Shown here piece after piece: positions 42,268-45,167 of a DNA stretch of 64,000 nucleotides. Every line of letters starts with the position of its first letter. Within the stretch, counting starts at the first letter, position 1. The stretch is from Escherichia coli (GTDB lineage: Bacteria; Pseudomonadota; Gammaproteobacteria; Enterobacterales; Enterobacteriaceae): the NCBI RefSeq assembly GCF_003334335.1, contig NZ_QOWQ01000011.1; one strand, given 5' to 3'. A program made the translations under genes and the position numbers. The notes beneath the pieces are model-generated. The model was not told the DNA's origin, searched no databases, and saw only the letters and a list, made by a program, of their open reading frames with translations.

Positions 42268-44544
42268 ATGCTCAATCAAGAACTGGAACTCAGTTTAAAT
42301 ATGGCTTTCGCCAGAGCGCGCGAGCACCGTCATGAGTTTATGACCGTCGAGCACTTGTTACTGGCGCTGCTCAGTAACCCATCTGCCCGGGAGGCGCTGG
42401 AAGCGTGTTCTGTGGATTTGGTTGCGCTCCGTCAGGAACTGGAAGCCTTTATTGAACAAACCACACCCGTTCTGCCTGCCAGTGAAGAGGAGCGCGACAC
42501 ACAGCCGACGCTGAGTTTTCAGCGTGTACTGCAACGTGCGGTCTTCCATGTCCAGTCCTCCGGTCGCAATGAGGTTACCGGTGCAAACGTTCTGGTCGCT
42601 ATCTTTAGCGAACAGGAGTCGCAGGCGGCATATCTGTTGCGTAAACATGAAGTCAGCCGTCTCGATGTGGTGAACTTTATCTCTCATGGCACGCGTAAAG
42701 ACGAGCCGACACAGTCTTCTGATCCTGGCAGCCAGCCAAACAGCGAAGAACAAGCTGGTGGGGAGGAACGTATGGAGAATTTCACGACGAACCTGAATCA
42801 GCTTGCGCGCGTGGGCGGAATCGACCCACTGATTGGTCGTGAGAAGGAGCTGGAGCGTGCTATTCAGGTTCTCTGCCGTCGCCGTAAAAACAACCCGCTG
42901 CTGGTGGGGGAATCTGGTGTCGGTAAAACCGCGATTGCGGAAGGTCTTGCCTGGCGAATTGTTCAGGGCGATGTGCCGGAAGTGATGGCTGACTGTACGA
43001 TTTACTCTCTCGATATCGGTTCTCTGTTAGCGGGCACAAAATATCGCGGCGACTTTGAAAAACGTTTTAAAGCGTTGCTCAAGCAGCTGGAGCAGGACAC
43101 TAACAGCATCCTGTTTATTGATGAGATCCACACCATTATCGGTGCGGGTGCAGCGTCTGGTGGTCAGGTCGATGCGGCTAACCTAATCAAACCGTTGCTC
43201 TCCAGCGGTAAAATTCGTGTAATTGGTTCGACAACCTATCAGGAGTTCAGCAACATTTTCGAGAAAGACCGTGCTCTGGCGCGTCGCTTCCAGAAAATTG
43301 ATATTACTGAACCGTCGATCGAAGAAACTGTTCAAATCATCAATGGCCTGAAACCGAAGTATGAAGCGCACCACGACGTGCGTTATACCGCAAAAGCGGT
43401 GCGTGCGGCGGTAGAGCTGGCGGTGAAATACATTAACGATCGTCATCTGCCGGATAAAGCCATTGATGTTATCGACGAAGCGGGCGCTCGCGCACGCCTG
43501 ATGCCGGTAAGCAAACGCAAGAAAACCGTTAATGTGGCGGATATTGAGTCCGTGGTGGCCCGTATTGCACGCATTCCAGAGAAGAGTGTTTCTCAGAGTG
43601 ATCGTGATACCCTGAAAAACCTCGGCGATCGCTTGAAAATGCTGGTCTTCGGTCAGGATAAAGCCATTGAGGCGCTGACTGAAGCCATTAAGATGGCGCG
43701 TGCAGGTTTAGGTCACGAACATAAACCGGTTGGTTCGTTCCTGTTTGCCGGCCCTACCGGGGTCGGGAAAACAGAGGTGACGGTACAGCTTTCGAAAGCT
43801 TTGGGCATTGAGCTTCTGCGCTTTGATATGTCCGAGTATATGGAACGCCATACCGTCAGCCGTCTTATTGGTGCGCCTCCGGGATACGTTGGTTTTGATC
43901 AGGGCGGTTTGCTGACTGATGCGGTCATCAAGCATCCACATGCGGTGCTGCTGCTGGACGAAATCGAGAAAGCGCACCCGGACGTGTTCAATATTCTGTT
44001 GCAGGTGATGGATAACGGTACGCTGACCGATAACAACGGACGCAAAGCAGACTTCCGTAACGTGGTGCTGGTGATGACCACCAACGCCGGGGTACGGGAA
44101 ACTGAGCGCAAATCCATTGGTCTTATCCACCAGGATAACAGCACCGATGCGATGGAAGAGATCAAGAAGATCTTTACACCGGAATTCCGTAACCGTCTCG
44201 ACAACATTATCTGGTTTGATCATCTGTCAACCGACGTGATCCATCAGGTGGTGGATAAATTCATCGTCGAGTTGCAGGTTCAGCTGGATCAGAAAGGTGT
44301 TTCTCTGGAAGTGAGCCAGGAAGCGCGTAACTGGCTGGCCGAGAAAGGTTACGACCGGGCAATGGGCGCTCGTCCGATGGCGCGTGTCATCCAGGACAAC
44401 CTGAAAAAACCGCTCGCCAACGAACTGCTGTTTGGTTCGCTGGTGGACGGCGGTCAGGTCACCGTCGCGCTGGATAAAGAGAAAAATGAGCTGACTTACG
44501 GATTCCAGAGTGCACAAAAGCACAAGGCGGAAGCAGCGCATTAA
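42268..44544 (+). CDS. clpA: ATP-dependent Clp protease ATP-binding subunit ClpA, 758 aa
   Basis: ATG at 42268 gives [14 protein letters not shown]; two AAA+ modules with Walker A GESGVGKT and GPTGVGKT. Confidence 0.92.
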
Positions 44545-44568
44545 TCTGATTGTTAGGTAGGTTGGTCA

Positions 44569-44605
44569 AGTCCGTAATCTCGAAAGAGGTTACGGACTTT
44601 TTGTT
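44569..44605 (+). terminator. Intrinsic terminator of clpA
   Basis: GTCCGTAATCTC-GAAA-GAGGTTACGGAC hairpin followed by TTTTTGTTT. Confidence 0.8.
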
Positions 44606-44756
44606 TATGGGGTGGAGGAGGTTCAGACCCTTTTTTTAATGATGATGGTAAGTTGTTGATAATTAGTGCTGCGGGAAGGTAAGGATAAAAAAGGGTGCTG
44701 CAGGAGAATGGGATGGTTTTGCTTTATTAACAACGGGCTAAACGTGTAGTATTTGA

Positions 44757-44844
44757 GTTCACTGCCGTACAGGCAGCTTAGAAATTCACAGGTAACATAC
44801 TCCACCCGCCCACCATGTTCACTGCCGTACAGACAGATAAAATG
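44757..44844 (+). CRISPR. Orphan type I-F CRISPR remnant: two repeats and one spacer, no cas genes
   Basis: Repeat 1 at 44757-44784 is GTTCACTGCCGTACAGGCAGCTTAGAAA (I-F consensus); 32-bp spacer at 44785-44816 is TTCACAGGTAACATACTCCACCCGCCCACCAT; repeat 2 at 44817-44844 is GTTCACTGCCGTACAGACAGATAAAATG (degenerate terminal repeat); AT-rich leader-like sequence at 44606-44756. Confidence 0.85.
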
Positions 44845-44874
44845 CGAAAAAAAAGCTCGCACTTTCGTACGAGC
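44845..44874 (-). terminator. Intrinsic terminator of serW
   Basis: Hairpin AGCTCG-N10-CGAGCT followed on the minus strand by a T8 run, just 3' of the tRNA. Confidence 0.7.
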
Positions 44875-44887
44875 TCTTCTTTAAATA

Positions 44888-44975
44888 TGGCGGTGAGGGG
44901 GGGATTCGAACCCCCGATACGTTGCCGTATACACACTTTCCAGGCGTGCTCCTTCAGCCACTCGGACACCTCACC
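44888..44975 (-). tRNA. serW: tRNA-Ser (anticodon GGA)
   Basis: Minus strand reads GGTGAGGTGTCCGAGTGGCTGAAGGAGCACGCCTGGAAAGTGTG...GGTTCGAATCCCCCCCTCACCGCCA: 88 nt, long variable arm, encoded CCA end. Confidence 0.95.
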
Positions 44976-45167
44976 AAATTGTTTTGCTACCAAACCTCAT
45001 GGGTGGCAACGGGGCGCTACTATAGGGAGTTGGAGTAAAACGGTCAAGAAGAATTTTAATGATAATTATTGTTTGCTCATACTGTAAACAAGTTGTGCAG
45101 TATATCTACATCGAGACAAGTTACGGACTTATACTTCCAAAGTACTTCATACATATCACAAAATAAA

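What the first reader, a model, noticed from the sequence alone, without database searches (positions are those of the whole stretch)
44606..44874. Orphan type I-F CRISPR remnant with a single spacer and no cas genes
Two 28-bp repeats flank one 32-bp spacer (TTCACAGGTAACATACTCCACCCGCCCACCAT). The first repeat is a perfect type I-F consensus and the second is degenerate after 16 nt, as expected for a terminal repeat. No cas gene exists anywhere in the 64 kb. The array sits between clpA and serW, the position where complete I-F systems are found in E. coli strains that carry them. Orphan arrays at this locus have been proposed to carry spacers matching I-F cas genes, which would make them an immunity memory against re-acquiring the system; whether this particular spacer does so I cannot determine without a search.
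Basis: partly seen in the sequence, partly recalled or inferred. Interest (0 to 1): 0.6.

Follow-up and report, generated by a model that had tools for sequence, protein, structure and literature searches.

The report
Known E. coli orphan anti-cas1 CRISPR array
This is the well-documented leftover type I-F CRISPR array that most E. coli carry between clpA and serW; its single spacer is a copy of the I-F cas1 gene, which has been proposed, and reportedly shown, to block re-entry of that CRISPR system, so the finding is real but already known.

Summary
Two 28-nt type I-F repeats (44757-44784 and 44817-44844) flank one 32-nt spacer (44785-44816), downstream of a conserved leader. The array lies between clpA and tRNA-Ser serW. 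There is no cas gene in the 64 kb.

The spacer matches the I-F cas1 gene (cas1f) of E. coli strains that carry the system:
- 30/32 in the common allele and 29/32 in a minor allele.
- 31/32 in the divergent strain E69.
- In every case the canonical I-F GG PAM sits next to the leader-proximal end.
- No phage or plasmid target was found.

Seven other spacers from eight sampled orphan loci all match cas1f or cas3f. All orphan loci share one terminal-repeat tail (ATAAAATG).

This is the array called CRISPR3 by Touchon and Rocha (2010) and CRISPR4.1-2 by the Mojica laboratory. Almendros et al. (2016), as summarised in two reviews, showed that such arrays turn an incoming I-F system against its own genes.

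Two details may weaken this particular allele. The terminal repeat carries G17A, which breaks the Cas6f hairpin (-8.6 to -1.4 kcal/mol) and is present in 2932 of 5426 complete genomes. The spacer also mismatches E. coli cas1f at seed position 4.

Verdict: already known, low interest.

The parts
44568..44599 (+). clpA intrinsic terminator hairpin; clpA stops at 44544. It marks the upstream limit of the CRISPR leader.
   Evidence: Terminator scan; inverted repeat I4; clpA annotation in the collinear genome.
44600..44756 (+). CRISPR leader. It is homologous to the leader of the clpA-proximal, cas-linked I-F array.
   Evidence: Alignment A1: identical to the leader of I-F-positive strain 504211, and the last ~75 nt are nearly invariant across orphan and cas-positive strains. 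It matches MS20655 at 93.8% (H28). No sigma-70 consensus site was found on the + strand.
44757..44784 (+). Repeat 1, a perfect type I-F repeat with an intact Cas6f hairpin (CUGCC-GUACA-GGCAG).
   Evidence: Rfam CRISPR-DR4 50.1 bits; fold -8.6 kcal/mol; identical to repeats of cas-linked arrays.
44785..44816 (+). The single 32-nt spacer, derived from I-F cas1 (anti-cas1).
   Evidence: 30/32 to cas1f of MS20655, against a maximum of 21/32 for 30 shuffled spacers. GG PAM. About 240-260 cas1f hits among complete E. coli genomes. 31/32 to the E69 allele.
44817..44844 (+). Terminal repeat. G17A breaks the C9-G17 pair of the hairpin. The last 8 nt (ATAAAATG) form the tail shared by all sampled orphan arrays.
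   Evidence: fold -1.4 kcal/mol; 20 bits. The exact 46-nt terminal repeat plus junction is in 2932 of 5426 genomes.
44847..44882 (.). Hairpin terminator of serW (minus strand). It probably also ends the CRISPR transcript. Similarity to cas-positive loci resumes here, at about 44848, so the cas operon of those loci occupies the position between the terminal repeat and this point.
   Evidence: Terminator scan; blastn of the cas operon against the window; sequence comparison.
44888..44975 (-). serW, tRNA-Ser(GGA), the downstream landmark of the locus.
   Evidence: ARAGORN; Rfam tRNA 53.8 bits.

Best explanation
This is the orphan type I-F CRISPR array of cas-less E. coli, called CRISPR3 by Touchon and Rocha and CRISPR4.1-2 by the Mojica laboratory. 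Its one spacer was copied from the I-F cas1 gene. In this cell it does nothing by itself, because no Cas6f or Csy proteins are present to process or use its transcript. The published mechanism works as follows. When DNA carrying a complete I-F cas operon enters, the invader's own Cas6f cuts the resident transcript. The invader's Csy complex loads the anti-cas1 crRNA, finds the GG-flanked protospacer inside the invader's cas1, and recruits Cas2/3. That either destroys the incoming DNA or primes acquisition of more spacers against it. The cell therefore stays free of I-F.

Shown here: the anatomy, the cas1 match with its PAM, the conserved leader, and the fact that all sampled orphan spacers target cas1f or cas3f.
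Taken from the literature: constitutive expression of the array, and interference plus priming by native orphan arrays.
Inferred: that this particular allele is still competent, given G17A in the terminal hairpin and mismatches at spacer positions 4 and 6 against E. coli cas1f.
For: - The spacer matches cas1f at 30/32, against at most 21/32 for shuffled spacers.
- GG lies next to the leader-proximal end of the protospacer, as defined for E. coli I-F in PMC3506596.
- The only non-array matches in 5426 E. coli genomes are in genes annotated cas1f.
- No phage target exists, and the only plasmid hit is a weak one in a Vitreoscilla cas1f.
- A natural allele in strain E69 matches 31/32, with the one mismatch at position 6, and matches the O157-type version of the spacer 32/32.
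- Seven further spacers from eight orphan loci all match cas1f or cas3f at 29-32 of 32-33 bases with a CC/GG PAM. Three of them are perfect matches to the minor allele.
- The leader is conserved and identical to that of a cas-positive strain.
- Literature: PMC2886076, PMC5972030, PMC8616872.
Against: - G17A in the terminal repeat drops the predicted Cas6f hairpin from -8.6 to -1.4 kcal/mol. In a one-spacer array this repeat supplies the 3' handle of the only crRNA.
- Against both E. coli cas1f alleles the spacer has a mismatch at seed position 4. From general knowledge of type I systems, that usually weakens direct interference.
- No sigma-70 consensus promoter was found on the + strand of the leader.
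- Some strains carry a 4-nt deletion in this spacer. About 2 of 57 sampled orphan loci have collapsed to a single repeat, so decay does occur.
- Orphan array and cas operon are alternative alleles of one locus (5178 + 241 = 5419 of 5426 genomes). Their mutual exclusion is therefore structural and is not evidence of interference.
- I could not read Almendros 2016, so I do not know whether this allele was among those tested.
Confidence: 0.7

Rival explanations
1. Inert scar. The array records an old autoimmune event: a resident I-F system acquired spacers against its own cas genes, and cells that deleted the cas operon survived. The remnant now has no function, at least in this allele, and persists by inertia.
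For: - The hairpin-breaking G17A is in 2932 of 5426 genomes.
- The spacer has a seed mismatch to both E. coli cas1f alleles.
- The window's T6A change corresponds to a Ser-to-Cys codon in cas1 and is absent from every cas1f allele examined, so it most likely arose inside the array.
- Truncated-spacer and collapsed single-repeat variants exist.
- No consensus promoter was found.
- Loss of cas genes after self-targeting was proposed by Diez-Villasenor et al. 2010, as discussed in PMC2886076 and PMC8616872.
Against: - Reviews report that native orphan arrays interfere with plasmids carrying I-F cas genes and are constitutively expressed.
- About 96% of sampled orphan loci still keep at least one spacer.
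- The leader-proximal 75 nt and repeat 1 are nearly invariant.
- The T6A change falls at position 6, which from general knowledge of type I complexes does not pair with the target.
- The two views are compatible. A scar by origin can still work as a barrier.
Confidence: 0.27
2. Cas-independent small RNA. The transcript acts as an antisense or regulatory RNA on a chromosomal target without any Cas protein.
For: Nothing specific. Orphan arrays in other species, such as Listeria, have been discussed in this light (PMC8616872).
Against: Apart from the array copies of the spacer and the cas1f genes, the sampled rows of the search of 5426 E. coli genomes showed only weak partial matches of 23-26 nt. 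This strain has no cas1f, so it has no target.
Confidence: 0.02
3. Chance direct repeat with no CRISPR ancestry.
For: Only two copies are present, and the second is degenerate.
Against: Repeat 1 is an exact I-F repeat (E = 2e-10). The spacing is 60 nt. The leader is homologous to that of cas-linked arrays. The spacer has a PAM-flanked protospacer.
Confidence: 0.01

Closest known systems
E. coli orphan I-F array: CRISPR3 of Touchon and Rocha 2010 (PMC2886076), CRISPR4.1-2 of Diez-Villasenor 2010 and Almendros 2016
   Same: Same locus (clpA/clpS to serW/aat), same 28-nt repeat, same short length, same modified terminal repeat, no I-F cas genes, and a spacer matching I-F cas1. The identical spacer is in 1433 complete genomes, including K-12 derivatives.
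   Different: Nothing of substance; this is a member. The G17A hairpin defect and the position-4 and position-6 mismatches are allele details. I could not find them discussed in the papers I could read.
Complete type I-F CRISPR-Cas locus of E. coli (for example LF82, ED1a, MS20655, 504211)
   Same: Same chromosomal site, same leader, and same repeat as the clpA-proximal array CRISPR4.1.
   Different: The window lacks cas1f, cas3f, csy1, csy2, csy3 and cas6f, and it lacks the second array between serW and infA. It has one spacer, against 8-36 in the cas-positive clpA-proximal arrays examined. Its terminal-repeat tail is ATAAAATG, not TATTCACA or TCTTCAAA.
Self-targeting spacers and cas loss in other CRISPR systems
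   Same: The spacer matches a gene of the cognate system, which is a known route to autoimmunity and cas deletion.
   Different: Here the target is absent from the host genome, so the spacer is harmless until the target arrives by horizontal transfer.

Membership tests
Type I-F CRISPR array | 28-nt repeat matching the I-F consensus, with the Cas6f stem-loop | tested here: met
   Repeat 1 scores 50.1 bits against Rfam CRISPR-DR4 (gathering score 35) and folds at -8.6 kcal/mol. Repeat 2 is below threshold (20 bits, -1.4 kcal/mol).
Type I-F CRISPR array | At least two repeats separated by a 32-nt spacer (60-nt period) | tested here: met
   Starts at 44757 and 44817, with a 32-nt spacer.
Type I-F CRISPR array | Leader homologous to that of cas-linked arrays | tested here: met
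   Alignment A1: identical to the 504211 leader, and 93.8% to MS20655.
Type I-F CRISPR array | Protospacer flanked by the GG PAM at the leader-proximal end | tested here: met
   cas1f ...ACCAGCGAA-GG. The PAM is CC on the non-target strand in all three alleles. PAM definition from PMC3506596.
Type I-F CRISPR array | Adjacent cognate cas genes | tested here: not met
   None in the 64 kb. This is what makes the array an orphan; it does not argue against CRISPR ancestry.
Type I-F CRISPR array | Transcription and Cas6f processing into crRNA | not testable with these tools
   Reviews state that orphan arrays are constitutively expressed. No consensus promoter was found.
E. coli anti-cas orphan array (CRISPR3 / CRISPR4.1-2) | Located between clpA and serW in a genome region without I-F cas genes | tested here: met
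   The rest of the genome is outside the window.
E. coli anti-cas orphan array (CRISPR3 / CRISPR4.1-2) | Spacer or spacers match I-F cas genes | tested here: met
   cas1f at 30/32, 29/32 and 31/32.
E. coli anti-cas orphan array (CRISPR3 / CRISPR4.1-2) | Shared modified terminal repeat and junction | tested here: met
   The ATAAAATG tail is in all 9 orphan loci examined. The junction is in 5178 of 5426 genomes.
E. coli anti-cas orphan array (CRISPR3 / CRISPR4.1-2) | Interference or priming against incoming I-F cas DNA | not testable with these tools
   Reported for native orphan arrays by Almendros 2016 according to PMC5972030 and PMC8616872. The primary paper is not held.

The most novel reading that the evidence does not exclude
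The K-12-type allele may be a dead copy of the anti-cas memory. It is the commonest terminal-repeat form among complete E. coli genomes. Its G17A change breaks the Cas6f hairpin that must form the 3' handle of the only crRNA. Its spacer also mismatches every E. coli cas1f allele seen here at seed position 4. If both defects matter, more than half of sequenced E. coli would carry a barrier that no longer works, or works only through priming. That would leave them open to I-F re-acquisition, and the rarity of I-F in E. coli would need another explanation.
Probability: 0.2. Interest if true: 0.35.

Novelty: already known. Interest (0 to 1): 0.15.

Why it matters
The array is a textbook example of a CRISPR array used against a CRISPR-Cas system, a host keeping itself free of an immune system that limits gene uptake. 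That significance belongs to the earlier papers. This analysis adds three things. It confirms the pattern on 5426 complete genomes. It identifies a perfectly matching natural cas1f allele in strain E69. It flags the widespread hairpin-breaking G17A, which bears on whether the commonest allele still works.

Tried and rejected
- **Phage and plasmid targets.** The phage search gave only a 17-nt chance match. The plasmid search gave only a weak 22/25 hit in a Vitreoscilla plasmid cas1f.
- **Metagenome search.** An exact search for the AGT/TGT protospacer plus PAM returned 0 hits.
- **Escape-allele idea.** I asked whether circulating E. coli I-F systems carry seed mutations that evade the orphan spacers. 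Across eight spacers and two alleles the mismatches are not concentrated in positions 1-8, and three anti-cas3 spacers match the minor allele perfectly. Not supported.
- **Mutual exclusion as evidence of interference.** Rejected. Orphan array and cas operon are alternative alleles of the same locus.
- **Promoter.** The scan found none on the + strand of the leader. Inspection by eye gave only weak candidates, so I claim none.
- **Origin of the junction bases ATAAAATGCG.** They are not found next to cas6f or next to the terminal repeats of cas-positive loci.
- **Collapsed arrays.** A first attempt with 'best' ranking was uninformative, because two-piece hits outrank single-piece ones. The 'spread' listing worked.
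- **Papers not held.** Almendros 2016 and Sternberg 2012 are not in the library. What I say about Cas6f hairpin tolerance and about seed position 4 and position 6 rests on my general knowledge of type I complexes.
- **Not traced.** Four genomes had two places for the spacer, and one place was on a plasmid. At E up to 10 these are probably partial chance matches like H90.

Full report
**Observation**

The region reads as the first stage described. clpA ends at 44544 and is followed by a terminator hairpin at 44568-44599. An AT-rich stretch runs to 44756. The array follows:
- Repeat 1: GTTCACTGCCGTACAGGCAGCTTAGAAA at 44757-44784.
- Spacer: 32 nt, TTCACAGGTAACATACTCCACCCGCCCACCAT, at 44785-44816.
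- Repeat 2: GTTCACTGCCGTACAGACAGATAAAATG at 44817-44844.

Repeat 1 is unique in the window, with no match in 100 shuffles. It scores 50.1 bits against Rfam CRISPR-DR4, whose gathering score is 35. Repeat 2 scores 20 bits. Repeat 2 is 22/28 identical to repeat 1. It differs at base 17 (G to A) and in the last eight bases, so "degenerate after 16 nt" is nearly right. A hairpin at 44847-44882 is the serW terminator, and serW, tRNA-Ser(GGA), lies at 44888-44975 on the minus strand.

**No cas genes in the window**

The window is collinear with E. coli strain 1A. It differs by 11 substitutions plus a shift in the last ~75 bases, probably an indel. That stretch is annotated dacC to ycaC with no cas gene. 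tblastn of the six I-F Cas proteins against the window gives nothing better than E = 0.049. The second-best Cas1f hit is the spacer itself, read as 11 codons of Cas1f.

**The locus in other strains**

The 344-nt clpA-serW interval is present in 5424 of 5426 complete E. coli genomes. In strains MS20655 and 504211 the same interval holds the full I-F locus: leader, array, cas1f, cas3f, csy1, csy2, csy3 and cas6f, then serW. MS20655 also has a second array before infA.

The window's leader is identical to that of 504211. The last ~75 nt before repeat 1 are nearly invariant in orphan and cas-positive strains alike. Similarity to the cas-positive loci resumes at about 44848, in the serW terminator. 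The cas operon of those strains therefore sits between the terminal repeat and that point.

**The spacer's target**

The reverse complement of the spacer matches cas1f of MS20655 at 30/32 (L001 14991-15022). Thirty shuffled spacers reached at most 21/32 over the same 28 kb. The cas1 coding strand reads ...GTT ACC AGC GAA GG. A GG dinucleotide therefore lies next to the protospacer end that corresponds to the leader-proximal end of the spacer. That is the PAM defined for E. coli I-F (PMC3506596).

Across 5426 genomes the spacer search gave these results:
- 1433 exact copies, unannotated, which are the orphan arrays. They include K-12 derivatives.
- 888 hits in the 95-99% identity band. Most sampled rows are one-mismatch array copies, including the O157:H7 type. 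Some are partial 25/26 matches.
- About 250 hits at 29-30/32, all lying in genes annotated cas1f.

cas1f itself is present in 241 genomes and never on a plasmid. Phage and plasmid collections gave no target. The only plasmid hit was a weak one in a Vitreoscilla plasmid cas1f.

**History of the spacer**

The O157-type spacer (TTCACTGG...) differs from E. coli cas1f only at position 4 from the PAM. That site is the third base of a serine codon (AGT versus AGC). An exact-pattern search of one genome per species found this AGT allele, with its GG PAM, in strain E69 (CP089930.1). E69's locus is about 84% identical to that of MS20655 and carries a 36-spacer array plus cas1f. The E69 allele matches the O157-type spacer 32/32. 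It matches the window's spacer 31/32, with the one mismatch at position 6.

The window's extra T-to-A change at position 6 would turn Ser into Cys in Cas1. No cas1f allele examined here has it. It most likely arose inside the array after acquisition. From general knowledge of type I complexes, position 6 does not pair with the target.

**Other orphan arrays**

I extracted eight further orphan loci chosen across the identity range. Together with the window they hold eight distinct spacers:
- Every one has its best match in cas1f or cas3f, at 29-32 of 32-33 bases.
- Nearly every one has a CC/GG PAM. One has TC against the major allele and CC against the minor allele.
- Three anti-cas3 spacers match the 504211-type operon perfectly.
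- All nine loci share the terminal-repeat tail ATAAAATG. This tail differs from the tails in cas-positive strains (TATTCACA, TCTTCAAA, TTTCACAA).

The shared tail agrees with the single origin argued by Touchon and Rocha. In an evenly spaced sample of 57 orphan loci, about 48 have one spacer, 3 have two, 4 have three, and 2 have collapsed to a single repeat.

**What is known**

- Touchon and Rocha (2010, PMC2886076) named this array CRISPR3. They reported that its spacers match Cas1, Cas3 and Csy2 of the Ypest (I-F) subtype, noted the conserved terminal repeat, and proposed an "anti-CRISPR" role.
- The Mojica laboratory calls it CRISPR4.1-2 (PMC3903273, PMC4489801).
- Two reviews from that laboratory summarise Almendros et al. 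2016 (Nat Microbiol 1:16081). According to them, orphan arrays are constitutively expressed. Native arrays cause interference against plasmids carrying a full set of I-F cas genes, using the incoming Cas proteins. Targeting also leads to primed acquisition of further plasmid spacers (PMC5972030, PMC8616872).
- I could not read the primary paper.

**Mechanism and caveats**

The best-supported account is the published one. The array is a latent guide that becomes active only when an I-F operon enters the cell, and it then directs that operon's own proteins against it.

Two features of this allele could weaken it:
1. G17A in the terminal repeat breaks the C9-G17 pair of the Cas6f hairpin. The predicted energy falls from -8.6 to -1.4 kcal/mol, while the O157-type terminal repeat keeps -8.6. 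In a one-spacer array this repeat provides the 3' handle of the only crRNA. The exact G17A terminal repeat plus junction is in 2932 of 5426 genomes, including MG1655 and BL21.
2. Against both E. coli cas1f alleles the spacer mismatches at seed position 4. From general knowledge, that tends to shift the outcome from direct interference to priming.

The promoter scan found nothing on the + strand of the leader. The near-perfect complementarity of orphan junction and cas1f (5178 + 241 = 5419 of 5426 genomes) only shows that they are alternative alleles of one locus. It is not evidence of interference.

**Verdict**

The open question is answered: the spacer targets I-F cas1. All of this was already published. 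Interest is low. The one loose end worth an experiment is whether the widespread G17A allele still works.

Noticed in passing
L001 19117-19134 (strain MS20655, between cas3f and csy1): An 18-nt exact reverse complement of the repeat hairpin region (AGCTGCCTGTACGGCAGT) lies on the cas sense strand. It has the same CUGCC/GGCAG stem with a UGUAC loop and folds within a -19 kcal/mol structure (z = -2.05). It could be a Cas6f-binding or processing site in the cas mRNA.
   Followed up: partly
window 45056-45165 (between serW and infA): Cas-positive strains carry a second leader and array here (L001 about 23530-24215). The window instead has about 110 nt of unrelated sequence. It has short similarities to the clpA-side leader and terminator (repeat families D1 and D3), but in a different order. 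The promoter-like sites on the minus strand here are probably those of serW.
   Followed up: partly
L005 544-679 (strain ECCNB20-2; also hits H21 and H25): Some strains have an insertion of about 177 nt between the orphan array and serW. RefSeq annotates it as 'RtT sRNA'.
   Followed up: no
L010 319-717 (strain MS1050); hits H129, H239 and H240: RefSeq annotates a 'hypothetical protein' CDS on the minus strand across the three-spacer orphan array. This is probably a spurious gene call over CRISPR repeats.
   Followed up: no
L004 560-587 (strain 81EVA): The anti-cas1 spacer is shortened to 28 nt by a 4-nt deletion, so decay is visible in some lineages.
   Followed up: no
L001 20741-21664; L014 18284-19984: csy2 of MS20655 is annotated as a pseudogene with an internal stop. 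In strain 504211 an IS100 sits just downstream of serW, where the second array's leader would be; a similar arrangement was reported for strain B7A in PMC3903273.
   Followed up: no
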